Virus record (IMG/VR): IMGVR_UViG_3300042922_000911
Location: 31,823-95,822 of that record
DNA from: a virus
Strand: one strand, 5' to 3'
Length of the DNA: 64,000 nucleotides
Of the stretch, positions 15,058 through 64,000 are shown one piece after another (position 1 is the first letter of the stretch; every line of letters starts with the position of its first letter). The position numbers were made by a program, and so were the translations under genes. The notes under the pieces were generated by a model. The model did not search any database. It was not told where the DNA came from and saw only the letters and a list, made by a program, of their open reading frames with translations.

Positions 15058-15535
15058 AAACGAAGAGCAAATTTACACCGACATTCAAACCAGGCTGGTG
15101 CGCTTTTTTGTCGAGGGCGTGCCGCAGGCGTTCACCCGTCAGATCGCGGTGAACGCCGCTCTTCGTGCGTCTGGGCGCTCAAAGGCGCGTGGCTCGGCCA
15201 TCCCGGCAAAGCTTCGGGAGTGGCGCGACACCATCCAGCTCTTGTACCTCGCGGCCGTCATGGAGGCAGATCCGAAGTATGAAGCGTTCCCGCGAAGTGG
15301 CGAGTTTACAGGCCCCGTCGAGTTAAGCATTGTAATCTGGGGGAGCCAGGCCGACGGCACCAACGTCCTGAAAGAGATCGAGGACGCGCTGAATTTTGTT
15401 GCGTACCCTGACGATAGGGTTATTGTTAAGGGGGGCTTCGCTTTCGGCGACCGTATGCTATCAGAACGAGGGGGTTTGTTGCGTAATGTAACATGTGTGC
15501 GGCAAGGCGTTGACATATCGGTTCAGTTTCGGTGA
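15047..15535 (+). CDS. rusA: RusA-like Holliday junction resolvase
   Basis: F.VEG.P N-terminus, GPVELSI, D..NVLK.IEDALN..AY.DD..I catalytic motif. Confidence 0.75.
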   Translation: MGPKNEEQIYTDIQTRLVRFFVEGVPQAFTRQIAVNAALRASGRSKARGSAIPAKLREWRDTIQLLYLAAVMEADPKYEAFPRSGEFTGPVELSIVIWGSQADGTNVLKEIEDALNFVAYPDDRVIVKGGFAFGDRMLSERGGLLRNVTCVRQGVDISVQFR

Positions 15536-15539
15536 TAGT
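15510..15539 (+). promoter_or_regulatory. sigma70-like promoter for the replication operon
   Basis: TTGACA 15510-15515, 18 bp, GATAGT; start of an AT-rich intergenic region. Confidence 0.45.
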
Positions 15540-15607
15540 AACAGTGTGGCAACGGTTGCTCGTTACCGAATCAGTATTTACAACGGTTTACGCACCAAGT
15601 TAGTGAC

Positions 15608-15640
15608 AAAAAAAGGAGCCGACCTTCGTCTGCCCCTTTC
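15608..15640 (-). terminator. Intrinsic terminator, leftward
   Basis: Minus strand AAAGGGGC-A-GAC GAAG GTC-G-GCTCCTTT followed by a T run. Confidence 0.55.
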
Positions 15641-15679
15641 GGAATGACCAGTTTGGTGTTAGCTTTGGTTTACCTTGAA

Positions 15680-15733
15680 CAAATAAAGAAGCCCCCCGCA
15701 TCGGCCCCTTAAACCTGACGCGGGAGACTTCTT
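15680..15733 (-). terminator. Intrinsic terminator, leftward
   Basis: Minus strand AAGAAGTCTCCCGCGTCAGG...CCGATGCGGGGGGCTTCTT-TATTTG; C/A mismatches on + become G-U pairs on -. Confidence 0.55.
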
Positions 15734-15826
15734 CGGAAAAGGCCACCACAAACCCATTCGGTGCAGGATCTAGCGCAAGCTAGGTTCAGCCTCGGACGGC
15801 TTTGTGTTGGTTAAACCACAGATCAA

Positions 15827-15855
15827 GGTATACCACGGCTTCGCGCCAAATTCAA
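15827..15855 (-). promoter_or_regulatory. Leftward sigma70-like promoter
   Basis: Minus strand TTGAAT-N17-TATACC with extended -10 TG. Confidence 0.4.
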
Positions 15856-15907
15856 CCGTCGATTCAACGAAAAGCCGGGGGGCGGCCCCCCGTAAGGAGT
15901 TCGGAAG

Positions 15908-16225
15908 ATGGCAGATTCGCAAGCGAGCAACCAGGCCTCGGGCAGTTTCGCCCAGGTCAGCAACGAGTTCCTTGCCGCGCTGATGAGCGTGCAGTTCACC
16001 GCCCGTGAGCTGCGCGTCATGCTCTACTGCGTGCGCCAAGGCGGGTACGACAATGACAAGCTCCGGCTGTGTCAGGCAACCTCCCTGTTTCCCCACAACG
16101 CCAAGTCCACCATCGACCGGCTGGTGAAGGGGCGCGTACTGGTCGCCAACGGCAACCGCTACGACCTCAACACCGACCCCTCGACGTGGGCGCTCGACGT
16201 GGTGAAGGCAAGCAGGTCCGCATGA
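15908..16225 (+). CDS. Stand-alone lambda O-like N-terminal (winged-helix) protein
   Basis: FAQVSNEFLAALMSVQFTARELRVMLYCVRQ resembles the Phage_rep_O N-terminus; RBS AAGGAG. Confidence 0.6.
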   Translation: MADSQASNQASGSFAQVSNEFLAALMSVQFTARELRVMLYCVRQGGYDNDKLRLCQATSLFPHNAKSTIDRLVKGRVLVANGNRYDLNTDPSTWALDVVKASRSA

Positions 16226-17523
16226 CCGAGCCCCGCTCGCCGGGGCCGCAACGAGAGGACGGATTCACCCCGGTCACACACCATTTGCTTGAGCTTTGGT
16301 GCATGCTCGGCCTCACGTCGCGACAGTGGCCGATCCTGATCCACGTCTGCCGGATCACCTACGGGTGGGACAAGACGGAGCGGGTCACGGATCTGTACTC
16401 GATCGCGGCCGCCGTGAACCAGAAGCCCGACAAGGTGAAAGACACCCTCGCCGTCATGGCCGAAGGGCGTCTGCTCGACCTGGACGGCGTTCCCTACCGT
16501 CGCAACACCTTCACCATCGGCATCAACAAGCACTATCCCGAATGGCGAGGCGACTTTGAGCTGCCTCGGCCGGTTCTGCTGCGCTACGCAGCCGAAGACG
16601 GCTACATGCTCGGCGACACGATCCTCAGTCGGCCCGTCGAGCAAACTCCCCAAAATGGGGAGTTTGAAAGTCCCCAAAATGGGGAGTTTGCCGCCGATCG
16701 CCCTCAAAGCGTGACGGCAAGCGCCTCGGCGGAAAGTCCCCAAAATGGGGAGTTTACTCCCCAAACCGGGGAGTTCCAAAGTCCCCAAAATGGGGAGTTT
16801 GAAAGTCCCCAAAATGGGGAGTTCCTGAAAACCGAAGTCACCAGCCGCATTGCCGGAAGTCCCCAAAATGGGGAGTTTGAAAGTCCCCAAAATGGGGAGT
16901 TTGAAAGTCCCCAAAATGGGGAGTTTGGTGACGGCAAACCCGCTGATAGTGCGGGTTCCAGCTCGCCTAAAGAAAGGTACTTAGTAAGTAGTAACCATCA
17001 TGGCGACGGCGATCGCCTTTCAGGCGCGGGCGATCTCGCGCATGCGGGCGATCCCGCGCATGAGGGAGGCCCGGCGATCGGTCCTAATGGAGCTTGGGCC
17101 AAGGAGGGCTATTCACTTTCAGGCCAACCGGAACCCCCCACCCCCCTACCCCCCGCCCCCCTGGTCGGCTGGAAGCGGCTGTGCGAGGTTTTCGCGAAGC
17201 TTCACGAACGCGGCCCCTACCCGATCGACCCGCATCAAGCCGAGCTGCGTGCGACGTGCGTCGAGTACGAGGTCACGGGCGACGAGTTCGCCGACGTGCT
17301 GGAAGCGTGGGCCGCGAAGCGGCGGGAGCGGCGGGCGGATACCCGCATCGGCTCGCCGGAATTGGCGAAGCGGATTCTTCGCGACGTGTTGAATGAGCGT
17401 GCTGCGAAAGCGCAGCGCGAGGCGAACGGCACCGAGAGGGTGCCGGGCAATAGGCTCACCGCCGAAGACTTCAAGGCTCGCGCCTTGGAGAAGAAGCGGC
17501 GGGCGAAGGAGGGATTGGCATGA
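16222..17523 (+). CDS. Replication initiator, lambda O-like, with internal iterons
   Basis: EDGFTPVTHHLLE...LTSRQ...RITYGWDK...IGINKHYPEW; internal iteron array; followed by DnaC-like gene. Confidence 0.8.
   Translation: MTEPRSPGPQREDGFTPVTHHLLELWCMLGLTSRQWPILIHVCRITYGWDKTERVTDLYSIAAAVNQKPDKVKDTLAVMAEGRLLDLDGVPYRRNTFTIGINKHYPEWRGDFELPRPVLLRYAAEDGYMLGDTILSRPVEQTPQNGEFESPQNGEFAADRPQSVTASASAESPQNGEFTPQTGEFQSPQNGEFESPQNGEFLKTEVTSRIAGSPQNGEFESPQNGEFESPQNGEFGDGKPADSAGSSSPKERYLVSSNHHGDGDRLSGAGDLAHAGDPAHEGGPAIGPNGAWAKEGYSLSGQPEPPTPLPPAPLVGWKRLCEVFAKLHERGPYPIDPHQAELRATCVEYEVTGDEFADVLEAWAAKRRERRADTRIGSPELAKRILRDVLNERAAKAQREANGTERVPGNRLTAEDFKARALEKKRRAKEGLA
16645..16926. repeat. Replication origin iterons: 9 copies of TCCCCAAAATGGGGAGTT, mostly 24-bp period
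   Basis: Copies at 16647, 16671, 16737, 16758 (variant), 16782, 16806, 16860, 16884, 16908; AT-rich patch at ~16968-16997. Confidence 0.85.
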
Positions 17524-36879: not shown

Positions 36880-37254
36880 ATGAACACCCTGCAAACCCCG
36901 ATTGACACGCAGTTTGAACGCTTCCACGCCGCGAACCCGCGTGTGTTTGAGGTCTTCGTGCAATGCGCGCTCGAGGACGTGGCCGACGGCAAGGCCCCGC
37001 GCGCCAACAGCATCTTTGAGCGCATGCGCGACGACCTGACGCTCAGCACGACCGGCGCACCGTTCAAGCTCCCCAACAACCTGCGCTCGCGGTACGCGCG
37101 CCTCGCCATGGTCGAGTGCCCCGAGCTGGCCGGTGCGTTCAAGATCGCCCGGCTCAAGGCCGACCCCGACGAGCTCGGGTCGCTGGCCGAGGCGATCGCA
37201 CAGGAAGCGAGCATCAATGGTGCTTGCGCCGCCGAGGGTGACGCCCATGCGTAG
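36880..37254 (+). CDS. Conserved phage hypothetical protein (paralog of 41181)
   Basis: FERFHAANPRVF...IFERMR...NNLRSRYARL. Confidence 0.65.
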   Translation: MNTLQTPIDTQFERFHAANPRVFEVFVQCALEDVADGKAPRANSIFERMRDDLTLSTTGAPFKLPNNLRSRYARLAMVECPELAGAFKIARLKADPDELGSLAEAIAQEASINGACAAEGDAHA

Positions 37255-52740: not shown

Positions 52741-55700
52741 ATGAGCCTCGCCCACAACCCCTTTTTGCGCCGCATGTCGGCCACTATCCTCGCGCTTTCG
52801 GTGAACCTGCACCAGGCCGACGAGCAAGACGCCCTCGAAAAGGCGCTCGTCGATGTGAAGCAGCACAGCCGCGTCACGAAGAGCGGCAAGACCGTCACCG
52901 TGAAGCAGCACCAGCGCGCCGTTCTCTCGGGCGCTGAGAAAACCGACGTGGTTCACCACCTCGCGCAGGCCATGGCCGACAAGGCCAACGGCGGCCGCGC
53001 GCGCATCGACCACCACGGCCACGCGCTCACGGCCGCGCACGCGATCGCCAAGAAGACCGGCAAGGCCGTCCACGTCACCAGCCACAAGGACGGCGGCTTC
53101 GTGCTGTCGCACGCGGCCCCCAAGAAGGCGGGCGTCGGCTCGATCGCGGTTCACGGCGACGGCAAGCACGTCATGCACCACCCCGAACACGGCAAGGTCG
53201 AGCTGAGCCGCGATCACGCGGCCAAGGTCTTGAAGGCCAAGCACCGCCCGGTTCAGGTGACGGCCCAGGCCCCCTCGAGCGAGAAGGCCCCGGCCCCCGA
53301 GAAGCCCAAGAAGGCCAGCGCGGCGCTCGCGGCCGTGCCCGTGCAGCCCAAGAAAGCCATCGTCCATTCCGAGGTGCCCGGCGGGCCGAAGTACGCGAGC
53401 CTGCACGCCGACGAGATCAACGTCGATGCCAACGCCTACCAGTTCAAGGACGGCGGCGATCAGCATGGCGTCACCGATCGCTTGAAGAGCGTGACGAGCT
53501 GGGATGCGACTTCCGGCCTCATGAACCCCATCCTGGTTCATGAGCGCGCCGACGGCACGCACTACGTCGTGGACGGCCACCAGCGCACCGGCCTCGCCAA
53601 GCGGCTCAAGGAACAGGGCCACGACATTCCCCCGCTCAACGCCGTGATCTTCAAGGAATCCGACGGCTACACCGTGGACGAAATGAAGCGGATCGGCGCG
53701 CTCGCCAACATTCGGCAGGGCACCGGCACGGCCGTCGATATTGCCAAGGTCATGAAGGTGCGCGCCTTCGACGAGCATGAGCGCGCGACCATCCCCGCCG
53801 GCAGCAACGAGGACTTCAAGGACGGCGAGGCGATCGCCAGCCTGTCGAAGGAAGCGTTCGACTACCTGACCACCGCTGGCGTCCACAAGGACCCCAAGAA
53901 GAACGCGCAGTTCGCGGCGATCGTCGCGCGCAAGATCAGCGACCCCAAGGAACAGGTCGCAGCTCTTCGCGAGCTCAAGAACGACCCGCCCGCCGGCCGC
54001 GAGGAATGCGAAGACGTGGTGGACGAGCTTGCATCCGAGGGGTTCGCCAACAAGCACGTTCAGCGCGACATTTGGGGCAACGAGAAGCAGACCGAGAGCC
54101 TGGCGAAGCCCACGGCCGAGATCAAGGCGACCGTGCGCCGCATGCTGGAATCGGAAAAGAGCGCCCTCGGCAACGCCGTGAGGCACAAGGCCCGGCTCGA
54201 GGCGGCCGGTAACAAGATCGACGAGGCCGCGAACAAGAAGGGTTACGACGCGGCCGATACACTCTCCAAGGTCCTCAAGGAGTTCAGCGGCCGTAACACG
54301 CAGAACGAGGTGAAAGACGCCATCAAGGAGGCAGCGAAGCAGTATGCAACAGGAGAAATCAGCCGGAAACGAGCCGCCGATCGGGTCGTCGAAGCCCTCG
54401 AAAGCTTCTACGCCGGGCATGCGGGTGGCGGCAGCGGTCACAGCGTACCACGAAGCGCATCAGCAGGCCCCGAAACTCTTTTCGAGGCAGACACCCCCAT
54501 CCAAGTAAGCAGCGATCAGCTCGGCTTGCTCGGCGGGGAGGCATCCGGCGCGGGCGTCGGTTCCCCTGGCCCGGCCGGGATGCCCGCCCCGGCCGCGAGC
54601 GAGCGCGATCAACTGGAAGCGGCCGTCGCGGCCAAGCTCGGCGGCGCGGTGCCCAAGGAGGTCGGCCACGTTCTCGACATGGCGGGCAACCCTGACAAGG
54701 TGTATGCCGCGATCCAGCTCGCCGAGAAGCGCGCGGCCGAGTACAAAAATTCCCGGCACGAAGACGAGCGCGCCATGGTCGATGCCTACAAGCACGCCGC
54801 GGCGGCGATTCTCGACACGCCCACGTTCAAGGCCCGCGATAGCGTCATGCGTGCCGAGGACGCGAAGCGCGCCAAGATCGACAACGGCAAGAACGCCCCG
54901 GCGGGCAAGCCGACCCCGCCGGCCCCCAAGGGCGAGCCGTCGGTTCTCGACAAGCTGAAAGCCGAAATGGACACGGCGCAGGATGCCTTCGTGGCCAAGC
55001 ACATGGAAGACCTCAAGCCGCACATGCGCGACGAGCTCGATCACCTGGAAGCCAAGTCGTCGATCAACGCGGCGTTCTCGGCGAACCTGACCGACGCCAA
55101 GCGCCATGACGCCGTGGAATCGGTCAAGCGCCAGTTTGTCGCGGGCGTTCAGGGCAAGGGCGCGCTGACCGACGCCGATCACACCGAGCGCGGCATGCGC
55201 GCCGACGCCATGAAGAAGCAAGCCGCCTACCACGCGGCCTCGACGGCGCACGACGAGGCCCGCTTCAAGGGCGGCGACGCGGCGGGCACCAAGAAGGCCA
55301 AGGAGGACGCTCACGCCGCCTGGAAGGATGCCGAAAACAACCTGACCCGCCACCTGACCGGCAACAAGGCCCCGGCCGCGAGCGAGGCCCCGAAGGCTGG
55401 CGCGTCGGCCGACGAGCTGCACGCTGCCTACCAGGCGGCGGCGTCGAAGGCCAGCCGCGCCATGGGCCGCGATAGCGCGGCGTTTGAGCAGCACATCGGC
55501 GAGGCCAACAAGCACGCCGAGGCCTACAAGCAGCTCACCGGCAAGCCGGTCCTGCACCATGGCAAGGATGCCGGCGGCGATCGCCCGGCGAGCAAGCCGC
55601 AAGGCCCCTCGCTCGAGGGCCAGAAGGGCTCGACGCCCGGCGCTCACGAAATGACGTTCAGCGAGTACAAGAACAGCATCCACGCCGAAATTGGCGGGTC

Positions 55701-58700
55701 CAGGGCCGAGAACCACAAGGCCTACATCGCCCGCGCCCTCGAGCGGGGCGAGAACGTGCCTGACCACGTTCTTTCCGAGCATGGCAACTACGGCCACGAC
55801 GCCAAGGCGGCGATCGCCGAGGCCAAGCAGCCCATGAGCGCCGAGGCCCGCAAGGAAATGGAGGCCGAAGAGCGCCGCATGGGCGCGGCTATGCGTCGCG
55901 GCGGCGGCAGCGGCCCGCGCAAGCCGCGCGGCGAGGCCGCGAAGCTGACGAAGGCGCTCGGCTACTCGACGCTTTCGCCCTTCACCGACATGTTCCTCGA
56001 CATGGTGAAGGCCATGGTCAAGCAGCACACCCGCCGGTCGAAGAGCGGTCAGACCTACGTCGTCAAGGAACACCACCGCAAGACCCTCACGAAGAGCGAG
56101 CGCGAGGATCTGGTGAAGCACCTGGCCGCGAAGCTCGGCGAGGGCGCTCACCCCAAGATCAAGACGGCCGCCGGTGCGATTCGCGCCGCCAAGGCCCTGT
56201 CGAAGCACACCGGCAAGGCCGTTCACGCCTTCAAGGGCGAGGACGGGCATTACCGCGTGTCGCACGACGCCGACCACGCGGGCAAGCACCGCAAGGTCGT
56301 GACCGCGCACGGCGGCAAGGCGATCATCACCGACACCCAGACCAAGGAAGCCCGCGAGCTGCGGAAGACCGATTACATGCCCCTGCATGCGATCCACCCG
56401 AAGCACCTCACGCCGGATGAGGTCGTGAAGCAGCGCGCCCAGATCCGCGAGCGCATCGAGCAGGGCAAGGGCGTGAAGGCCCACGTCCTCGACGCGCACA
56501 AGGACCTCAAGCGGCACAAGGCCCGCCGCGACCAGGCGCAGATGAAGGCCGCGAGCTACCTCAAGGAATCGAAGGCCCGCGCCGCGGCCCTGCGCGCCGA
56601 GAAGAAGCAGGCCAAAGAAGCCGCGCAGCTCTCGGCCGAGCAGAAGAAGGGTTTCGAGAAGGTCGCCGAGCAGTTCATGGCCGACGAGCGCAAGGCCTTC
56701 CCCGACATGGAACACGACGAGCTCGTTGCTCGAGCGACCCGCTCCCTGATGGACGCCACCAAGGACGCCGATCACCCCGGCATCCATGACGCCGTGGCGC
56801 ACGCCATCGAACACATCAAGGGCATGAAGCCCAAGAAGCTGACCCCGAAGCCGAAGACGGCCCCCGGCGAGTTTGCTGCGGCCGAGCCGACGGCGGCCGA
56901 GAAGAACCGCTCGATGCTCGACCGCGCGAAGGGCGTGACCGACTTGCTCGCCGAGCTGGACAAGCACGGCGTTCGCATGTCGCGCGTCGAGCAGCGCGCC
57001 GTCGAGCAGGGGAACGCCGTGGCGATCGCCACCGTGCGCGCCCGGCTCGAGAAGGTCAAGGCCAAGGCCGCGAAGGGCCAGGCCCCGGCCGCGCCCGCCG
57101 AGGCCCCCGGCAGCGGCAAGGCGGCGGCCGAGGCCGACAACGCCAAGCGCCGCAAGCCGAAGTCTGTGTCCCTCGCGAACGTCGAGGTCGGCGATACCCT
57201 GGTTGCGACCAAAGACAGCATTGCGGGCGATCGCGGCACCCTGTTCACCGTGACCGGAACCGACCAGGAAGGTCACATTTCGTACCGCTCCCACGACACC
57301 GGCTCGGTCATGACCGCCAAGCCGGAAGACCTCAAGCGCATTGGCGTCCAACACCAGCAGACCGACGACGGCCCCACGTTTGAGCAGGCGAAGGCCAAGC
57401 AGGCCATGACCGGCAAGGAAGCCGCCGAGGCCGACAATGCGGCCGACAAGGACGAACACGGGCTCAATTCGGCGCAGCGCGCCGCCGTCGAGCGCCTGAC
57501 GGCCCGTGCGGCCGAAATGGGCTCGACCCCGATCGCCCTGGTTCGCAGCAACACCGGGCAATTGCGCTGGATGACCCAATCGGCGCACGGCAACCATGTC
57601 ATGTCGGTCGTCCTGTTCGACAACGGCGAAACGTCGGGCGGCGGCACCCGCGTCATTGGGCCGAACGACACCGTTCTGATCGACTACAAGAAGGGCGAAG
57701 AGCCCGCGAGCGGCAAGAAGCCGGGCGCGCAGCCGGGCAACGACAACGCCAAGAAAGACGGCGCGACCGAAGACGACAAGGCTTTCGGCCCCAACAAGGG
57801 CAAGACGCTCGCCGAGCTGCCCCCGAAGGTCGGCGATCTGATTTACAGCGCCCCCGACAACCCCGAAGACGGCGTGCTGATGGTTACGGGCATCAAGCCG
57901 GGCGGCTACGTGACGGCCGTCGCCGTGTCGCCGTTCAACCCCAACGATGGGTATGACCTCGGCTTCAACACCAACGTCCATTACAGCACCGAATCGGATC
58001 ACGCCGTCTTCGCCCCGGCCGAGCTGGCCGACCTCGCGCACACCGGCCGTCAGGCGAAGGACGTGCAAGCGGTTCTCAAGAAGGCCCCCAAGCTCGACCC
58101 CGCCGACATGGCGAGCGCCGAGCGTGCCCAGGCTCGCGCCGAGCGCGCGGGCGGTGCCCCCGCGGCCCCGGCCGCGCCCGCAGCCCCGGCCCCCGCGCCT
58201 GTGGCCCCGGCCGCGCCGGCCGCGAGCGTCAGCAACCCCCTCGGCCTGGTGCGCCGGAACGAGGCGCTGAACGGCATCGAAGTCCAGTTCTACGAGAAGC
58301 CCCACGCCGACACGCTCGCGGGGCTCAAGGCCGCTGGCTTCCGTTGGCACAAGGTTCAAAAGGTCTGGTACGCCAAGCACTCGCCCGAGCGTGAGGACGC
58401 GGCGCACCTCGCCACCGGCGGGCAGCTCCCGTCGATGAAGCAGACCCCCACGGCCGCGACCGGCGACGAGGACACCGGCCGCAACCCCGGCGGTCAGCCC
58501 GGCAACCAGAACGCCTACAAGGGCGGGCCGAAGGACGAACCCACCTCGAGCAAGGCCCCGGCCGCGCCCGACGAGCCCGCTCACCTGTTCCCGACGCACT
58601 CCGACGACATTCCCGCCGCGAAGGGCGTCACCAGCGAGAGCGTGCATACCGTTCGCCCGCGCTACAACAACGAGCGCATCAAGGTTCGCGCCGAGCGCGG

Positions 58701-61452
58701 CGGCTGGGACTACTACGAGTACCGCGACCCCGCGCACCCGCACGGCGCGACGTTCATGGACGTGGCCGGCGCGGCCAAGGGCCATTGGGAAACCTACGTG
58801 CCCGAGGACGTGAAGGCCAAGCACGAAGCCGACCAGGCCGAGAAGAAGGCCCAGGCCGACGAGCGCGCCGCGAAGCGTTTCGAGGTGCATGAGAACGACG
58901 GCAAGCACTTCGTCGTCCATGCGCCGTCGAAGACCATCATCGACCGGGGCGGTCACGCCACGAAGGAAGAGGCCGAGGGCCTGATCGACCGCCTGCGCGG
59001 CTCGCGCTTCGACGTGGATACGGCCCCCGAGCAATGGATGCCCTACTTGAACGCCGAGGGTAAGAAAGAGCTGGCCGAGCGCATTCGCCCCGGCAGCACC
59101 GCGCCGAAGGCCGAAGAGCCGAAGAAGGACGAGCCGAAGGCCCCCGAAGCGCCGAAAGCCGAGGAAGCCAAGCCCGAAGAGCCGAAGGCCAAGGCCCCGG
59201 CCAAGCCCAAGGCGAAGGCCGAGGGCGCTGCGAAGCCTGCCTCGAGCGAGCCGGCCGACACCGGCCGCGACGCCGAGCGGGCCAAGCTGAAAGAGGCCGT
59301 CGAGAAGGCCGAGGCGGCTTACAGGGACTTCCATTGGGCCTACCCCGGCACCGTGAAGAAAGAAGTCGGCGTGCCCCTGTGGGAGGCGGTCGAGAAGGCT
59401 CGCGCCGCGCTCTCGCGCTTCGATCACCCCGAGAAGGACAAGTCGCACCTCGATTACAAGGACGTGGGCGAGAAGATCGGCGGCGCGCGCAAGGACACCT
59501 GGCGCTCGATCGAGGCCGGTGATTCGACGTACAGCACGATCGATTGGGATTCGCTCGACGAAGAGCCCGACCAGGCGCAGCGGGTGATCACCCGTAGCAA
59601 CCTGCTCGCGCACTCGACCCCGCAGCACATGAAGGACGCCGGCCGACACGCGGGCGTCGCGTACCTGACGCACCACATTCTCATGGCGATCGCCCAGAAG
59701 CCCGCCACCGACACCGCGGCAGCTCGTCGCGCCTACGCGAAGGGCGTCGAGTACGTGCAGCGGTCGCTTCAAAACGCCAACACCTTCCAAGACGTTGTGA
59801 ACGCCGTGAGCTCGATCCGCGACCAGGCGCGCGGCTACCACATGGAGCCGGATGAAAAGATGGAGCATGACCGCCTGAAAGCGGCGTCGAGCGAGGCTTA
59901 CAAGGTCTACAAGTCGTTCGATGCGGGCGTGAACGAGGCCTACCAGGCCTGGCAGGCGGCTGGCCATGCGGTCAACGAGATCAGGTACAACCGCCGTCTG
60001 AAAGACGAGGACAAGCGCGCCGCGCTCATGAAGCCGCTCGAGGTCGAAGCCGAGAAGGCCCGCGCCAAGTGGCAAGCCAAGCTCGACGAGAAGCGGCCCG
60101 CCGAGGCGGCTTACGATGCGGCTTCCAAGGCCTTCGGCGAGTTCGCCAAGGTTCTGCGCGATCGCGACGAGAAGAACCCCGAGGGCTGGAAGAACGCCAT
60201 CGGCATGCTCGGCGATCGCTTCGACACCATGCTCAAGGGCAAGGGCGCGGTCTGGGAGAAGCACAGCCCGCACGCGCAGCGCAAAGTCGCGGCCGACGAT
60301 TGGAGCTGGATGGAGAAGCAGGACGCCGCCGGCAACCCCGAATCGAAGACGCCGCGCGAGAAGAAGGAACGCACCCTTCCCGAGTGGGAGCGGTACGTTC
60401 CCGCCGAGGTCGAGCGCAGCGGCGGCGCTGACGTGGGGCCGGTGAAGCCCGAAGACCTCAAGGCGCGGTTCAACCTGCGCGCGGTCGAGTACGGCAACTA
60501 TGTCTCGCAGGACGAGGCCGCGCACCATACCAAGTGCGCCACCGAGGCCCTTCAAGACATGGCCGACGCCCTCGGCCTCGCGCCCGATCAGGTCAGCTAC
60601 GGTGGCCGCCTCGCGCTCGCCTTTGGCGCTCGCGGCAACGGCCACGGCCTCGCCCACTACGAGCCGGGCAAGAAGGTTATCAACATCACCAAGAACGCCG
60701 GTGGCGGCTCGCTCGCGCACGAATGGGGCCACTTCCTCGACAACATTCTCGCCCAGGTGGCGCATGAGGGCGAGGGCGGTCACAACAGCTTCGGCAGCCA
60801 CGGCAAGCACGGCCCCGCCATGCCCGAGAAGGTGATCCACGCCTTTGAAGAGCTGCGGAACGCCATGATGGCGGGCGACATCAAGCCCACGAAGGCCGTC
60901 AAGCCCGGCAACAAGCAGTACCGCGCACAGGCGGCGATCGACGAGATCATTGCCCAGGCTGGCGGTGACGGGCAAAAGGCCTACGACGCCATGGCCAAGA
61001 ACCCGCGCTTCGCCTACTACCTGGACAAGCCCAAGCACGCCAAGCAGTACGCCGAGTACGTCGCGACGAAGACCGGCCACACCATTCAGGTTCCCACGGG
61101 GGAGCCGGGCCGTTCCGTCTACCTGCACACGGCGACCGAGATGGGCAAGTATTGGGCGCTCGAGCATGAAATGTTCGCCCGCGCGTGGGAATCCTACGTT
61201 CAAGACAAGCTCGAGGCGAAGGGCATCCGTAACAGCTACCTCGTCAGCGGCACCGACATGACCAACGACTTCCGCGACCCCGACAGCAAGAAGGCCTCGG
61301 GATTCGCGTACCCGCAGGGCGAAGAGCGCCAGCGCACCAATGCGGCGTTCGACAAGCTCATGGACGCGGTGAAGGCGACCGGCATGTTGGAAAAGGCGAT
61401 CGCCCTCGCCGACGCCGACCAGGAGCTCGCGTGGTTCCTCGCTGGCGTGTAG
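52741..61452 (+). CDS. Giant polyvalent (probable internal head) protein: ParB/Srx-like domain, HExxH zincin and LPD1-like C-terminus
   Basis: YVVDGHQR ParB motif (~53.4-53.75 kb); LAFGARG...AHYEP...INITK..G.GSLAHEWGH.LD and YW...EMFARA.E.YV...YP.GEER (~60.5-61.4 kb). Confidence 0.8.
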   Translation: MSLAHNPFLRRMSATILALSVNLHQADEQDALEKALVDVKQHSRVTKSGKTVTVKQHQRAVLSGAEKTDVVHHLAQAMADKANGGRARIDHHGHALTAAHAIAKKTGKAVHVTSHKDGGFVLSHAAPKKAGVGSIAVHGDGKHVMHHPEHGKVELSRDHAAKVLKAKHRPVQVTAQAPSSEKAPAPEKPKKASAALAAVPVQPKKAIVHSEVPGGPKYASLHADEINVDANAYQFKDGGDQHGVTDRLKSVTSWDATSGLMNPILVHERADGTHYVVDGHQRTGLAKRLKEQGHDIPPLNAVIFKESDGYTVDEMKRIGALANIRQGTGTAVDIAKVMKVRAFDEHERATIPAGSNEDFKDGEAIASLSKEAFDYLTTAGVHKDPKKNAQFAAIVARKISDPKEQVAALRELKNDPPAGREECEDVVDELASEGFANKHVQRDIWGNEKQTESLAKPTAEIKATVRRMLESEKSALGNAVRHKARLEAAGNKIDEAANKKGYDAADTLSKVLKEFSGRNTQNEVKDAIKEAAKQYATGEISRKRAADRVVEALESFYAGHAGGGSGHSVPRSASAGPETLFEADTPIQVSSDQLGLLGGEASGAGVGSPGPAGMPAPAASERDQLEAAVAAKLGGAVPKEVGHVLDMAGNPDKVYAAIQLAEKRAAEYKNSRHEDERAMVDAYKHAAAAILDTPTFKARDSVMRAEDAKRAKIDNGKNAPAGKPTPPAPKGEPSVLDKLKAEMDTAQDAFVAKHMEDLKPHMRDELDHLEAKSSINAAFSANLTDAKRHDAVESVKRQFVAGVQGKGALTDADHTERGMRADAMKKQAAYHAASTAHDEARFKGGDAAGTKKAKEDAHAAWKDAENNLTRHLTGNKAPAASEAPKAGASADELHAAYQAAASKASRAMGRDSAAFEQHIGEANKHAEAYKQLTGKPVLHHGKDAGGDRPASKPQGPSLEGQKGSTPGAHEMTFSEYKNSIHAEIGGSRAENHKAYIARALERGENVPDHVLSEHGNYGHDAKAAIAEAKQPMSAEARKEMEAEERRMGAAMRRGGGSGPRKPRGEAAKLTKALGYSTLSPFTDMFLDMVKAMVKQHTRRSKSGQTYVVKEHHRKTLTKSEREDLVKHLAAKLGEGAHPKIKTAAGAIRAAKALSKHTGKAVHAFKGEDGHYRVSHDADHAGKHRKVVTAHGGKAIITDTQTKEARELRKTDYMPLHAIHPKHLTPDEVVKQRAQIRERIEQGKGVKAHVLDAHKDLKRHKARRDQAQMKAASYLKESKARAAALRAEKKQAKEAAQLSAEQKKGFEKVAEQFMADERKAFPDMEHDELVARATRSLMDATKDADHPGIHDAVAHAIEHIKGMKPKKLTPKPKTAPGEFAAAEPTAAEKNRSMLDRAKGVTDLLAELDKHGVRMSRVEQRAVEQGNAVAIATVRARLEKVKAKAAKGQAPAAPAEAPGSGKAAAEADNAKRRKPKSVSLANVEVGDTLVATKDSIAGDRGTLFTVTGTDQEGHISYRSHDTGSVMTAKPEDLKRIGVQHQQTDDGPTFEQAKAKQAMTGKEAAEADNAADKDEHGLNSAQRAAVERLTARAAEMGSTPIALVRSNTGQLRWMTQSAHGNHVMSVVLFDNGETSGGGTRVIGPNDTVLIDYKKGEEPASGKKPGAQPGNDNAKKDGATEDDKAFGPNKGKTLAELPPKVGDLIYSAPDNPEDGVLMVTGIKPGGYVTAVAVSPFNPNDGYDLGFNTNVHYSTESDHAVFAPAELADLAHTGRQAKDVQAVLKKAPKLDPADMASAERAQARAERAGGAPAAPAAPAAPAPAPVAPAAPAASVSNPLGLVRRNEALNGIEVQFYEKPHADTLAGLKAAGFRWHKVQKVWYAKHSPEREDAAHLATGGQLPSMKQTPTAATGDEDTGRNPGGQPGNQNAYKGGPKDEPTSSKAPAAPDEPAHLFPTHSDDIPAAKGVTSESVHTVRPRYNNERIKVRAERGGWDYYEYRDPAHPHGATFMDVAGAAKGHWETYVPEDVKAKHEADQAEKKAQADERAAKRFEVHENDGKHFVVHAPSKTIIDRGGHATKEEAEGLIDRLRGSRFDVDTAPEQWMPYLNAEGKKELAERIRPGSTAPKAEEPKKDEPKAPEAPKAEEAKPEEPKAKAPAKPKAKAEGAAKPASSEPADTGRDAERAKLKEAVEKAEAAYRDFHWAYPGTVKKEVGVPLWEAVEKARAALSRFDHPEKDKSHLDYKDVGEKIGGARKDTWRSIEAGDSTYSTIDWDSLDEEPDQAQRVITRSNLLAHSTPQHMKDAGRHAGVAYLTHHILMAIAQKPATDTAAARRAYAKGVEYVQRSLQNANTFQDVVNAVSSIRDQARGYHMEPDEKMEHDRLKAASSEAYKVYKSFDAGVNEAYQAWQAAGHAVNEIRYNRRLKDEDKRAALMKPLEVEAEKARAKWQAKLDEKRPAEAAYDAASKAFGEFAKVLRDRDEKNPEGWKNAIGMLGDRFDTMLKGKGAVWEKHSPHAQRKVAADDWSWMEKQDAAGNPESKTPREKKERTLPEWERYVPAEVERSGGADVGPVKPEDLKARFNLRAVEYGNYVSQDEAAHHTKCATEALQDMADALGLAPDQVSYGGRLALAFGARGNGHGLAHYEPGKKVINITKNAGGGSLAHEWGHFLDNILAQVAHEGEGGHNSFGSHGKHGPAMPEKVIHAFEELRNAMMAGDIKPTKAVKPGNKQYRAQAAIDEIIAQAGGDGQKAYDAMAKNPRFAYYLDKPKHAKQYAEYVATKTGHTIQVPTGEPGRSVYLHTATEMGKYWALEHEMFARAWESYVQDKLEAKGIRNSYLVSGTDMTNDFRDPDSKKASGFAYPQGEERQRTNAAFDKLMDAVKATGMLEKAIALADADQELAWFLAGV

Positions 61453-61453
61453 T

Positions 61454-61493
61454 GTCAGAAAAGCGGGGAGCTGCCGGGGTCGCCTGGTAGAAT
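61454..61493 (+). promoter_or_regulatory. Phage-specific promoter GTCAGAAA-N26-TAGAAT
   Basis: Conserved spacing; no ORF before the next terminator. Confidence 0.55.
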
Positions 61494-61548
61494 GCCCGCA
61501 CCCCTTTCGGCAGGGCGCAAGCCCGGCCGTGGAGCGAGCGAACCGAGA

Positions 61549-61580
61549 GCGGCCCGACAAGCGATTGTCGGGCCGTTTTC
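61549..61580 (+). terminator. Intrinsic terminator
   Basis: CGGCCCGACAA-GCGA-TTGTCGGGCCG-TTTT. Confidence 0.85.
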
Positions 61581-61601
61581 GCATTTATGAGAAAATAATG
61601 G

Positions 61602-61630
61602 TTGACTTTAGATTATTCTTACGTTAATAT
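61602..61630 (+). promoter_or_regulatory. Near-consensus sigma70 promoter
   Basis: TTGACT-N17-TAATAT with AT-rich UP-like tract upstream. Confidence 0.75.
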
Positions 61631-61636
61631 GAGCAA

Positions 61637-62030
61637 GTCGTCAGGACGTGCGGCACAGTCTCAGACGCTTCCCTTTCGGGGCGAGGCGGCGGGGAATGGG
61701 CCGGTGGTTCTCTCGACACCCGGCCGGGTTGGTGCCGTTTCCGCTTTCGGGCGGGCGTGGCGACCAGGGCGGGCAGCTCTCTCCCCTTCGGGCTTTTGTC
61801 GGTGGGGGCCGGGTTGTTCGCTTGAAGCTTCACCGCTTCCCCTGTCACTGGACCCCGTTTCCGGTTCTTCGGTGCCGGTCTTGGCGGTCCTCCCGATTCG
61901 GCCCCCCGTGAGGGGAGCTGAGAACGCCCGCGAGACTTCCGCCAGGTTGGCTCGCGGTGCTACCGACCCCCTCGATGCGTGTTGAGCCGCAAGGCCCGCT
62001 GCACCGGGGGGATTCTGGTATCTGTGCCCT
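61637..62030 (+). ncRNA. Large structured non-coding RNA of unknown class (~380-390 nt)
   Basis: Long-range closing helix, at least eight internal helices, UUCG/GNRA loops, many G-U pairs on + strand, own promoter, no credible ORF. Confidence 0.65.
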
Positions 62031-62031
62031 T

Positions 62032-62071
62032 GGCAGAAACGCGGCCTCGTCGCTTGGCTAAGTGCTACGAT
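62032..62071 (+). promoter_or_regulatory. Phage-specific promoter GGCAGAAA-N26-TACGAT
   Basis: Shares TGCTACGATCGCCCC with the 5936 site. Confidence 0.65.
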
Positions 62072-62095
62072 CGCCCCTACGAGGGGGCGTTGAGC

Positions 62096-62434
62096 ATGGC
62101 TGTCACCGAGATCGTCACCGACTTGCAGCTCGCCGACGGCACGAAAGCCCAAGGCGAGCTTTTGGCCGTTCCGTCAGAGGCCGTCACCACGCCCGACGGC
62201 GACACCTTCCTGCCCCGCGTCGCGCATTACGACGTGGTGGACGGCGTTGCGTACATGAAGGGCTCGACGACCGAGCGCATGACGCTGCCCTCGACGGCCG
62301 TCGGCACGCCTGCGGGCGTTGCGATCGCCCTGTCGTTCAAGGCCACCGGCGATCCGCGCACCATCCAGCTCGGCCGCTTCGTGATTCCCTCGAGCGACGA
62401 GCCGATCTTGTTCTCGGCGCTTGTGGCCGAGTAG
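62096..62434 (+). CDS. Fibre adaptor-like protein
   Basis: Aligns with the N-terminus of 62443 (TEIVTD..L.DGT...PDG.T.LPR...GSTTERM.LP). Confidence 0.65.
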   Translation: MAVTEIVTDLQLADGTKAQGELLAVPSEAVTTPDGDTFLPRVAHYDVVDGVAYMKGSTTERMTLPSTAVGTPAGVAIALSFKATGDPRTIQLGRFVIPSSDEPILFSALVAE

Positions 62435-62442
62435 GAGGCCCC

Positions 62443-64000
62443 ATGGCGCAAACCGAGATCGTCACCGACTTCCGGCTGCTCGACGGCACCCCGGCCGACG
62501 GCGTGCTGTATGCAGCGCCCGCGCGCATGATGGCGACGCCCGACGGCGAAACGATCTTGCCGCGGACCGTGACCTTCGATGTGGTGGCGGGCGTGGCCTA
62601 CAAGCAGGGCAGCACGACCGAGCGCATGTCGCTGCCGGCGACGGCCGCGTGCGACCCCGTGAACACGACCATTTACCTGTCGCTGCACCGCACGGGCGAG
62701 CGCCGGCCGGTGCCCCTCGGGCACTTCATCATCCCGCAGAGCGCGACCCCGATCGAGCTGGCGTCGATGCTCGAGGCCGAGCCGGGCGCGGCGATCGTCT
62801 TCGACTACGTGCGCGCCATCATGCACGGCGACGATCGGCTCTCGGGCGTGGTTCACTTCGGCGAGGGCTTCGCGCTCGACCTGGACACCGGCACGATTCG
62901 GCTCGCCGCTGGCGTGAACGGCATCGGGGTTCACACGGGCACCGAGCCGCCGGAAGACACCGACGCATACCCGCTGTGGGTGGACGCGGATTCGACGCCG
63001 AACGGGGCGCTTCGCGGCTGGAACGGCACCGAATGGACCGACTTGCTCGCAGGCCCGACCGGCCCGCAAGGCCCCATGGGGCTGACCGGCCCCGCCGGTG
63101 CGCCCGGTGCTGATGGGGCGATCGGCCCGCAGGGGCCGCAAGGCGAGATCGGGCCGAAGGGTGACAAGGGCGACACGGGCGCGGCCGGTGCTGCCGGGGC
63201 GCAGGGCATCCAGGGCGTGCAAGGCCCCGCCGGTGCCGATGGAGCTGCCGGGCCGCAGGGTATCCAGGGCGCGACGGGTGCCGCCGGCCCGAAGGGCGAC
63301 ACCGGCGACACCGGCCCGGCCGGGCCGCAGGGCGTGCAAGGCCCCGCCGGTGCCGACGGCGCACAGGGGCCGCAAGGCATTCAGGGGCCGAAAGGCGACC
63401 CCGGCGACACCGGCCCGGCCGGGCCGCAGGGCGACCCCGGCCCCGCTGGCGCTGACGGGGCGATCGGCCCCGCCGGTGCCGATGGAGCTGCCGGGCCGCA
63501 GGGCGAGCCCGGCCCGCAAGGCATCCAGGGGCCGCAGGGCATCCAGGGCGACACCGGCCCCGCCGGGGCTGACGGCGTGGACGGCGCACAGGGGCCGCAG
63601 GGCTTGCAGGGCATCCAGGGGCCGCAGGGCGAGGTCGGCCCCGCCGGTGCCGACGGCCTCGACGGTGCGCCTGGTGCTGACGGTGCTACCGGCCCGCAGG
63701 GTGAGATCGGCCCGCAGGGGCCGCAAGGCATCCAGGGCGTGAAGGGCGACACGGGCGACACTGGCCCGCAGGGCATCCAGGGGCCGCAAGGTATCCAGGG
63801 CATCCAAGGCCCGGCCGGTGCCGACGGCCTCGACGGTGCGCCGGGTGCCGACGGTGCCACCGGCCCGCAGGGCGAGATCGGCCCGCAGGGGCCGCAGGGC
63901 GAGATCGGCCCGCAAGGCATCCAAGGCCCGGCCGGTGCCGACGGCCTCGACGGTGCGCCGGGTGCCGACGGTGCTACCGGCCCGCAGGGTGAGATCGGCC
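62443..64000 (+). CDS. Collagen-like fibre protein (partial, runs off window; absent from ORF track)
   Basis: RBS AGGAGG, ATG 62443; ~200-aa N-terminal region then continuous Gly-X-Y ([13 protein letters not shown]...) to base 64000. Confidence 0.85.
63052..64000 (+). repeat. Collagen Gly-X-Y coding repeats with higher-order duplications
   Basis: Repeated gccggtgccgacggcctcgacggtgcgcc(t/g)ggtgc(t/c)gacggtgc blocks near 63644, 63814, 63931. Confidence 0.9.

What the first reader, a model, noticed from the sequence alone, without database searches (positions are those of the whole stretch)
61602..62030. Candidate novel ~380-nt structured ncRNA with its own near-consensus sigma70 promoter
Seen: TTGACT-N17-TAATAT (61602-61630) points into ~400 bp without a credible ORF. 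The ends pair: GGCACAG 61652-58 with CTGTGCC 62022-28, and TCAGA 61661-65 with TCTGG 62014-18. Internal helices: CGCTT-CCC(TTTC)GGG-AGGCG; GGCGGGGAA with TTCCCCTGTC; GGCCGGTG with CACCCGGCC; TGGTGCC-CCGCT(TTCG)GGCGG-GGCGACCA; a 12-bp GU-rich GGGCGGGCAGCT/GGTTGTTCGCTT; GGACC-CCGGTTC(TTCG)GTGCCGG-GGTCC; TTCGGC-CCCC(GTGA)GGGG-GCTGAG; CCGCGAG/CTCGCGG; CCCCC...GCC(GCAA)GGC...GGGGG. UUCG and GNRA tetraloops and G-U pairs fix the strand as +. It lacks tmRNA ends and the RNase P GAGGAAAGUCC signature, and no RT, IscB or TnpB gene is adjacent. Inference: a host-polymerase-transcribed phage RNA (scaffold, decoy/anti-defence sponge or packaging-associated) inside the head module.
Basis: partly seen in the sequence, partly recalled or inferred. 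Interest (0 to 1): 0.85.

Follow-up and report, generated by a model that had tools for sequence, protein, structure and literature searches.

The report
Promoter-headed non-coding spacer, structure unproven
An uncultured soil phage carries about 390 bases of truly non-coding, adenine-poor DNA behind a good host-type promoter, so an untranslated RNA is probably made there. Its many possible hairpins are no more than similar sequence in this genome gives, and no relative exists to test for a conserved fold.

Summary
The anatomy is real. A strong terminator (61544-61590) is followed by an AT-rich TTGACT-17-TAATAT promoter (61602-61630). Then come about 390 nt with no coding signal in any frame (61637-62030; A 9%, T 22%). 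A phage-specific promoter (TGGCAGAAA 62031, TACGAT 62066) follows and heads a 112-aa gene and a collagen-like tail fibre.

The claim of a structured RNA is not established.
- Rfam gives nothing.
- The fold is -205 kcal/mol, z -1.9 against its own shuffles. But 14% of arbitrary windows of this phage reach that z.
- The composition-adjusted residual is only -0.8 SD for the full fold and -1.3 SD for hairpins alone.
- The end-to-end "closing helix" is matched by 10-20% of controls.

What remains in favour:
- A sharply bounded, strand-specific lack of A without any relic of coding periodicity.
- A TTCGG (UUCG-loop) density in the top 0.5% of windows.
- A better-defined fold ensemble than all but one of 150 shuffles.

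No relative of the phage, and no copy of the element, was found in phage, viral, metagenome or genome collections. Covariation therefore cannot be tested. The scan's earlier notes hold no look-alike on other DNA.

Best reading: an early, untranslated, hairpin-rich transcript or leader. It has no terminator and would read into the fibre operon with that operon's ribosome site locked in a hairpin. A trans-acting novel ncRNA stays possible, at about 0.2.

The parts
52741..61452 (+). Upstream gene: 2903-aa polyvalent (virion-associated or ejected type) protein
   Evidence: LPD1 domain at residues 2801-2879, E 1.9e-21; PHROG hits; strong GC3 periodicity
61453..61493 (+). Variant copy of the phage-specific promoter class (TGTCAGAAA box, 25-nt spacer, TAGAAT)
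   Evidence: Same layout as nine exact TGGCAGAAA sites. All ten lie on the + strand and each has a TAnnnT hexamer 34-35 nt after the box start
61544..61590 (+). Strong intrinsic terminator: 17-bp stem, GCGA loop, U-rich tail. With the promoter at 61453 it could give a small RNA of about 85 nt
   Evidence: Fold of 61500-61590: -49.7 kcal/mol, z -5.29, 0 of 200 shuffles; hairpin alone z -5.5
61602..61630 (+). Sigma70-like promoter TTGACT-17-TAATAT in an AT-rich island (GC 43%), with an A/T-rich stretch just upstream
61637..62030 (+). Candidate RNA body: non-coding, A 9% / T 22%, a chain of about eight local hairpins
   Evidence: Non-coding. Composition. Folds. TTCGG density in the top 0.45% of windows
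62031..62071 (+). Phage-specific promoter (TGGCAGAAA 62031-62039, TACGAT 62066-62071) of the fibre operon
   Evidence: The other copies lie 65-136 nt before start codons of the tail, portal, polyvalent-protein and other genes
62062..62097 (+). Hairpin of about 15 bp that encloses the Shine-Dalgarno sequence (GAGGGGG) and part of the AUG. Its 5' arm contains the -10 hexamer, so it forms only in transcripts that start upstream
   Evidence: Fold of 62040-62110: -31.7 kcal/mol. Fold of 62078-62110, the inferred late transcript: -5.1 kcal/mol, z +1.07
62096..62434 (+). 112-aa ORF, a paralogue of the N-terminal domain of the fibre; no homologue elsewhere
   Evidence: GC3 phase and codon log-odds +0.62; translations; only itself found among 5.8 billion proteins
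62443..64000 (+). Collagen-like tail fibre gene, which runs over the contig end
   Evidence: Collagen repeats E 4e-51; tail-fibre PHROGs; translation

Best explanation
The interval is a real non-coding transcription unit, not a demonstrated structured-RNA gene.

Most likely course of events:
1. Early in infection, host RNA polymerase starts at about 61637, from the TTGACT/TAATAT promoter. (The promoter match is shown; its activity is inferred.)
2. It makes an A-depleted, G/U/C-rich RNA that folds locally into a string of about eight hairpins, several capped by UUCG or GNRA loops. (These are predicted folds only.)
3. There is no terminator, so the polymerase runs on across the late promoter into the 112-aa gene.
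4. In this long transcript the ribosome-binding site and part of the start codon are locked in a hairpin of about 15 bp. The 5' arm of that hairpin contains the -10 box of the late promoter. The early RNA would therefore be untranslated.
5. Transcripts from the phage-specific TGGCAGAAA promoter would start inside that arm and be open for translation. (The folds are computed; the start sites are inferred.)

On this reading the 390 nt act in cis as a stable, nuclease-resistant structured leader or insulator between the head-protein operon and the fibre operon. They need not have one defined architecture.
For: - Promoter. The only other TTGAC-type promoter, at 15510, also heads a long (about 360 nt) non-coding leader rich in TTCGG.
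- Strong terminator just upstream isolates the unit.
- Coding is excluded.
- The lack of A is sharply bounded at 61650-62030. A 9% against a genome mean of 18.6% (sd 3.3); the only non-periodic window that low apart from the GC-rich (about 77%) stretch near 37200.
- TTCGG occurs 5 times against a mean of 0.63 per window, the top 0.45%.
- Ensemble diversity is 41.6 against 100 +/- 32 in shuffles; 1 of 150 shuffles is as low.
- No terminator follows the element, and the ten-member promoter class begins at 62031.
- The hairpin over the ribosome site forms only in long transcripts.
Against: - There is no expression data at all; the only run holding the DNA is a DNA run.
- Folding energy is not exceptional for this genome, and the closing helix is at chance level.
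- No homologue exists, so nothing shows that sequence or structure is conserved.
- The transcription start sites of both promoters are inferred from hexamer positions.
- The host is unknown, so the use of the sigma70-type promoter is assumed.
Confidence: 0.45

Rival explanations
1. A stand-alone, trans-acting structured ncRNA of about 390 nt, as the first reader proposed (scaffold, decoy or sponge). It would be made by host polymerase and released by processing or inefficient termination near 62030. It would be a new RNA family.
For: - Own promoter.
- Discrete A-poor domain whose first and last 7 nt pair, with base-pair probability 0.99.
- Well-defined ensemble.
- Individual hairpins with z from -2 to -3.9.
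- UUCG-loop enrichment.
- The next gene has its own promoter and so does not need this leader.
- The hairpin over the ribosome site suggests the long transcript is not meant to be translated.
Against: - No terminator or recognisable 3' end.
- Fold excess is weak against the genome background.
- The closing helix is not significant.
- The hairpin windows were chosen after folding, which biases their z-scores.
- At 9% A there are few candidates for the A-minor tertiary contacts typical of large ornate RNAs (established knowledge, not tested here).
- No homologue in any collection.
Confidence: 0.22
2. A functionally neutral spacer. The promoter-like hexamers in the AT-rich island would be fortuitous, or would only form the terminator and UP region of neighbouring signals. 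The 390 nt would be filler left by recombination at a module junction. Next to it lies a duplicated fibre N-terminal domain.
For: - Thermodynamic measures are within the genome background.
- The element is unique to one contig.
- The neighbouring 112-aa ORF is a partial duplicate of the fibre gene, which shows past rearrangement here.
- The composition equals that of the antisense strand of genes in this phage.
Against: - Phage genomes are compact, and this is the longest non-coding stretch in the genome.
- A neutral sequence should not keep a 2.4-fold T over A skew. A relic of an inverted gene should keep local GC periodicity or a protein similarity, and it keeps neither.
- The promoter match is one of only two of its kind in 96 kb.
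Confidence: 0.22
3. A DNA-level site, such as a packaging signal, a recombination site or a protein-binding array, rather than an RNA.
For: - Short direct repeats: CCGTTTCCG twice and GGCCGGGTTG twice.
- Position at a module boundary.
Against: - The repeats are at chance level: a repeated 9-mer is expected about 1.2 times in 400 nt of this composition (my own calculation), and one-mismatch matches in the window equal the shuffle expectation.
- The replication origin is elsewhere, as iterons at 16640-16930.
- A strand-specific composition and TTCGG loops point to RNA, not duplex DNA.
Confidence: 0.06
4. A small unconventional protein-coding gene, for example the 127-aa + strand ORF or the 163-aa - strand ORF.
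For: Open frames exist.
Against: - All six frames score negative for codon usage.
- No periodicity.
- No family or homologue.
- Open frames are expected in 68% GC sequence. The translations gave no family or homologue match.
Confidence: 0.03

Closest known systems
Long structured 5' leaders and dual-promoter control in phage operons (for example the lambda PR'-6S RNA-tR' arrangement; from established knowledge)
   Same: A promoter followed by a non-coding, hairpin-rich transcript ahead of late structural genes. A short promoter-plus-terminator unit lies at 61453-61590. Whether the gene is translated would depend on which transcript carries it (inferred).
   Different: No Q-like antiterminator site, put-like element or nut-like element was identified. 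The element lies upstream of the late promoter, not downstream. Nothing has been tested experimentally.
Large ornate phage- or prophage-associated RNAs GOLLD and ROOL, and OLE (Rfam; cryo-EM in PMC12286853)
   Same: A non-coding region of several hundred nucleotides in a phage, with many predicted helices and unknown function.
   Different: No match to their covariance models. The element is shorter, at about 390 nt. It is not next to tRNAs. It is extremely A-poor. It has no covariation support and no relatives.
phi29 pRNA (packaging RNA)
   Different: No Rfam match. The portal is only 33% identical to those of SPO1-type phages and is not phi29-like. No evidence links the RNA to the packaging motor.
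Cyano-2 RNA motif (RF01702)
   Same: A weak match of 17 bits (E 0.089) covers the terminator hairpin with its GCGA loop and the AT-rich promoter at 61522-61663. The genome carries the cyanobacterial HIP1 signature.
   Different: The score is far below the gathering score of 40 bits. The match lies upstream of the candidate body and is best explained by a generic hairpin plus AT-rich sequence.

Membership tests
Any Rfam 15 family (RNase P, tmRNA, 6S, group I/II introns, riboswitches, GOLLD/ROOL/OLE/raiA, pRNA) | Covariance-model score at or above the family's gathering score | tested here: not met
   0 matches in the whole window at gathering score. At E up to 10 on 61400-62200 there are only three weak hits, none inside 61664-62030.
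tmRNA / tRNA-like RNA | tRNA-like acceptor ends and a tag reading frame | tested here: not met
   ARAGORN finds no tRNA or tmRNA in the 64-kb window.
Retron msr-msd or DGR template RNA | Reverse transcriptase gene adjacent or in the genome | tested here: not met
   No RVT_1 (PF00078) match in the 95.8-kb record; the controls were positive.
Cyano-2 (RF01702) | Score of 40 bits or more, with two conserved stem-loops | tested here: not met
   17 bits, E 0.089, and only the second stem-loop aligns convincingly.
Independent bacterial or phage ncRNA gene (generic) | Own promoter | tested here: met
   TTGACT-17-TAATAT at 61602-61630. This is a consensus match only.
Independent bacterial or phage ncRNA gene (generic) | Defined 3' end (intrinsic terminator or processing site) | tested here: not met
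   No terminator-like site between 61640 and 62600. The next feature is a promoter that starts at 62031.
Independent bacterial or phage ncRNA gene (generic) | Structure conserved with compensatory changes in relatives | not testable with these tools
   No homologue was found:
- INPHARED phage collection.
- IMG/VR: exact-pattern scan, portal protein query, motif-pair scan.
- 64 loci beside related polyvalent proteins from viral, metagenome and genome contigs, searched by blastn, nhmmer and tblastn and by a covariance model of the 3' half.
- Genome contigs by exact pattern.
Independent bacterial or phage ncRNA gene (generic) | Folding stability beyond the background | tested here: inconclusive
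   z -1.9 against its own shuffles and low ensemble diversity, but only -0.8 to -1.3 SD against composition-matched genome windows.
Independent bacterial or phage ncRNA gene (generic) | Detected transcript | not testable with these tools
   Only one public run holds the DNA. It is a DNA run of a soil metagenome.

The most novel reading that the evidence does not exclude
A lineage-specific, early-expressed, A-depleted RNA of about 390 nt. It would fold into a defined multi-hairpin body closed by the 61652/62022 helix and act in trans, for example as a stable decoy for a host RNA-binding protein or nuclease. It would be a new phage RNA family with no relatives yet sequenced.
Probability: 0.2. 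Interest if true: 0.6.

Novelty: new member of a known kind. Interest (0 to 1): 0.3.

Why it matters
If the RNA is real and functional, it would add an orphan RNA to the growing list of phage-encoded RNAs. It would also give an example of translation that depends on which promoter made the transcript: the ribosome site is locked in upstream-initiated transcripts and open in transcripts from the phage's own promoter.

As it stands, the practical value is a caution. In a 67% GC genome, lists of helices, G-U pairs and tetraloops read by eye do not separate a structured RNA from ordinary G+U-rich sequence. Calibration against the same genome removed most of the apparent signal.

Tried and rejected
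- Rfam at gathering score and at E up to 10: nothing relevant.
- DNA similarity to 50,697 phage records, distant mode: no match.
- Exact-pattern scans with two segments of the element, in IMG/VR and in GTDB genome contigs: no match.
- Relatives sought through neighbouring proteins:
  - The 112-aa protein is an orphan.
  - The polyvalent C-terminus gives 64 loci at 25-60% identity in viral, metagenome and genome contigs. None carries a similar DNA, a similar six-frame product or a covariance-model match, and none has a comparable A-poor non-coding stretch.
  - The portal has no close relative in IMG/VR and is about 33% identical to SPO1-like phages.
- The lineage motif pair TTACACAGG...TTACACAGG was used to fish for kin and returned unrelated contigs, mostly low-GC.
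- Sequencing runs: no RNA holder is listed, only one DNA run that is probably the source. Laying its contigs gave only three short unrelated pieces and no cover of the element.
- Relic-gene idea rejected: no local periodicity, no paralogue in the genome, no homologue of the longest ORF.
- Origin-of-replication idea rejected: the iteron array is at 16640-16930.
- The two similar hairpins at 61729-61767 and 61848-61892 were considered as paralogous protein-binding modules. The shared 9-mer is at chance expectation (and my own calculation), so I dropped this.
- Literature searches found no described match.
- Earlier notes of this scan hold no look-alike on other DNA.

Full report
**Context.** The window is the last 64 kb of a 95,822-bp IMG/VR virus record with a 98-bp terminal repeat. 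It is 66.6% GC. The only public run that holds it is a soil metagenome. The octamer GCGATCGC (HIP1) occurs 92 times, against 24 for the next commonest palindromic octamer. That is a cyanobacterial-type signature, but the host is unknown.

The finding lies in a 643-nt gap between two genes. Upstream is a 2903-aa polyvalent protein gene (52741-61452; LPD1 domain). Downstream is a 112-aa ORF (62096-62434), followed by a collagen-like tail fibre from 62443. GC3 phase and codon scores fix these genes and their frames.

**Anatomy of the gap.**
1. Directly after the stop codon lies TGTCAGAAA-N25-GTAGAAT (61453-61493). This is a one-mismatch copy of a phage-specific promoter class. The class has nine exact TGGCAGAAA boxes, all on the + strand, and every one of the ten is followed at the same distance by a TAnnnT hexamer. 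In the window, the exact copies lie 65-136 nt upstream of start codons.
2. Next come a GNRA-capped hairpin and a very strong terminator (61544-61590; fold of 61500-61590 z -5.3).
3. Then comes an AT-rich island (43% GC) holding TTGACT-17-TAATAT (61602-61630). My scan of the whole genome finds only two TTGAC-type promoters on the + strand: this one and one at 15510. The promoter at 15510 heads a non-coding leader of about 360 nt before the replication genes.
4. The candidate body follows at 61637-62030.
5. An exact TGGCAGAAA box lies at 62031 with TACGAT at 62066. So the fibre operon has its own promoter immediately after the candidate.

**Is it non-coding?** Yes.
- GC periodicity is absent at 120-, 300- and 60-nt scales. 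The 60-nt value is 0.19, against 0.18 for shuffles and 0.44 for coding sequence.
- Codon log-odds are negative in all six frames.
- Six-frame translations match nothing else in the genome or in the related loci.
- The internal ORFs have no Pfam or PHROG family, and the 163-aa minus-strand ORF has no homologue.

**Is it a known RNA?** No. Rfam 15 gives nothing at gathering scores and nothing inside the body at E up to 10. A 17-bit Cyano-2 match covers the terminator and promoter only and is far below threshold. ARAGORN finds no tRNA or tmRNA. The genome has no reverse transcriptase.

**Is the structure more than chance?** Mostly not. The + strand folds to -205 kcal/mol with z -1.9 (3 of 100 and 7 of 150 shuffles fold as well). 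The - strand has z -0.2. I calibrated this against the phage itself:
- 63 of 918 windows of 400 nt fold at least as well, and after regression on GC, G and U content the candidate lies 0.83 SD below expectation.
- Fifty arbitrary windows have shuffle z-scores averaging -0.63 (sd 1.21), and 14% reach -1.9 or lower.
- With pairing restricted to local hairpins, the residual is -1.30 SD, and 8.5% of windows are as extreme.
- The strand asymmetry is compositional. The G+U-rich antisense strands of ordinary genes fold as well or better.
- Individual hairpins score z -2 to -3.9, but I chose those windows after folding.

**What remains unusual.**
- The body is sharply A-depleted: 35 A against 85 T, or 9% A against a genome mean of 18.6%. 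It shows no trace of coding periodicity. That argues against both neutral drift and a decayed inverted gene.
- TTCGG, the signature of UUCG-type loops, occurs five times. That places the region in the top 0.45% of windows. The other sigma70-headed leader, at about 15400, is the only other non-coding region at that level.
- The ensemble is much better defined than that of shuffles: diversity 41.6 against 100 +/- 32, and 1 of 150 shuffles is as low.
- Together these favour selection at the RNA level on the + strand. They do not establish one architecture.

**Comparative evidence.** None is obtainable.
- The 112-aa neighbour is an orphan.
- The polyvalent C-terminus finds 64 loci at 25-60% identity. 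None has a DNA, six-frame protein or covariance-model match, and none has a comparable A-poor non-coding stretch.
- The portal has no close kin.
- Exact-pattern scans and a motif-based search for kin failed.
- No RNA run is listed, and laying the DNA run was uninformative.
- The scan's earlier notes hold no look-alike on other DNA. They do record unrelated large phage RNAs elsewhere.

**Mechanism proposed.** No terminator follows the body. A transcript from 61637 should therefore run into the 112-aa gene. Folding 62040-62110 puts the Shine-Dalgarno sequence GAGGGGG and part of the AUG into a hairpin of about 15 bp (-31.7 kcal/mol). The 5' arm of that hairpin (62062-62078) contains the late promoter's -10 hexamer. 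A transcript that starts at the inferred late start site, about 62078, lacks that arm and is unstructured (-5.1 kcal/mol, z +1.07).

I therefore read the element as an early, untranslated, hairpin-rich leader-type RNA. The fibre operon would be translated only from its own promoter. This is inference from folds and hexamer positions; no start site has been measured.

The rivals are:
- a neutral spacer at a rearranged module junction (the 112-aa ORF duplicates the fibre's N-terminal domain);
- a DNA-level site (the replication origin itself is elsewhere);
- a coding region.

**Verdict.** The promoter, the lack of an ORF and the complementary segments are real. The statistical case for a defined structure is weak once it is calibrated against the genome. 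Interest is modest.

Noticed in passing
window 16640-16930: About eleven copies of a 24-bp iteron (core TCCCCAAAATGGGGAGTTTGAAAG, itself a palindrome) lie inside the 484-aa ORF 16069-17523. This gives the strongest fold residual in the genome on both strands (z about -7). It looks like a lambda-O-type replication origin inside the initiator gene.
   Followed up: partly
window 5935, 24996, 29633, 46400, 52654, 61453 (variant), 62031, plus three sites upstream of the window: A promoter class of TGGCAGAAA, a 25-nt spacer and then a TAnnnT hexamer. There are ten sites, all on the + strand; the window copies lie 65-136 nt before start codons. This suggests a phage-encoded activator or sigma factor for middle or late genes.
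   Followed up: partly
window 61453-61590: The variant promoter, a GNRA hairpin and a very strong terminator would give a small RNA of about 85 nt. The arrangement is reminiscent of lambda PR'-6S RNA-tR' and may be an antitermination checkpoint.
   Followed up: partly
window 62096-62434 and 62443-62790: The 112-aa ORF is a stand-alone paralogue of the N-terminal (virion-attachment) domain of the collagen-like fibre that follows it. It has no homologue elsewhere.
   Followed up: partly
whole genome (G000): HIP1 octamer GCGATCGC occurs 92 times in 95.8 kb; the next palindromic octamer occurs 24 times. This is a cyanobacterial-type signature in a 66.6% GC soil phage.
   Followed up: partly
window 15510-15908: The only other TTGAC-type sigma70 promoter (TTGACA-18-GATAGT) heads a non-coding leader of about 360 nt before the replication genes. 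That leader is also enriched in TTCGG (5 per 390 nt).
   Followed up: no
window about 58900-59450, minus strand: Eight TTCGG (seven of them CTTCGG) occur within 390 nt on the antisense strand of the polyvalent protein gene. They may reflect a repeated peptide motif in the protein.
   Followed up: no
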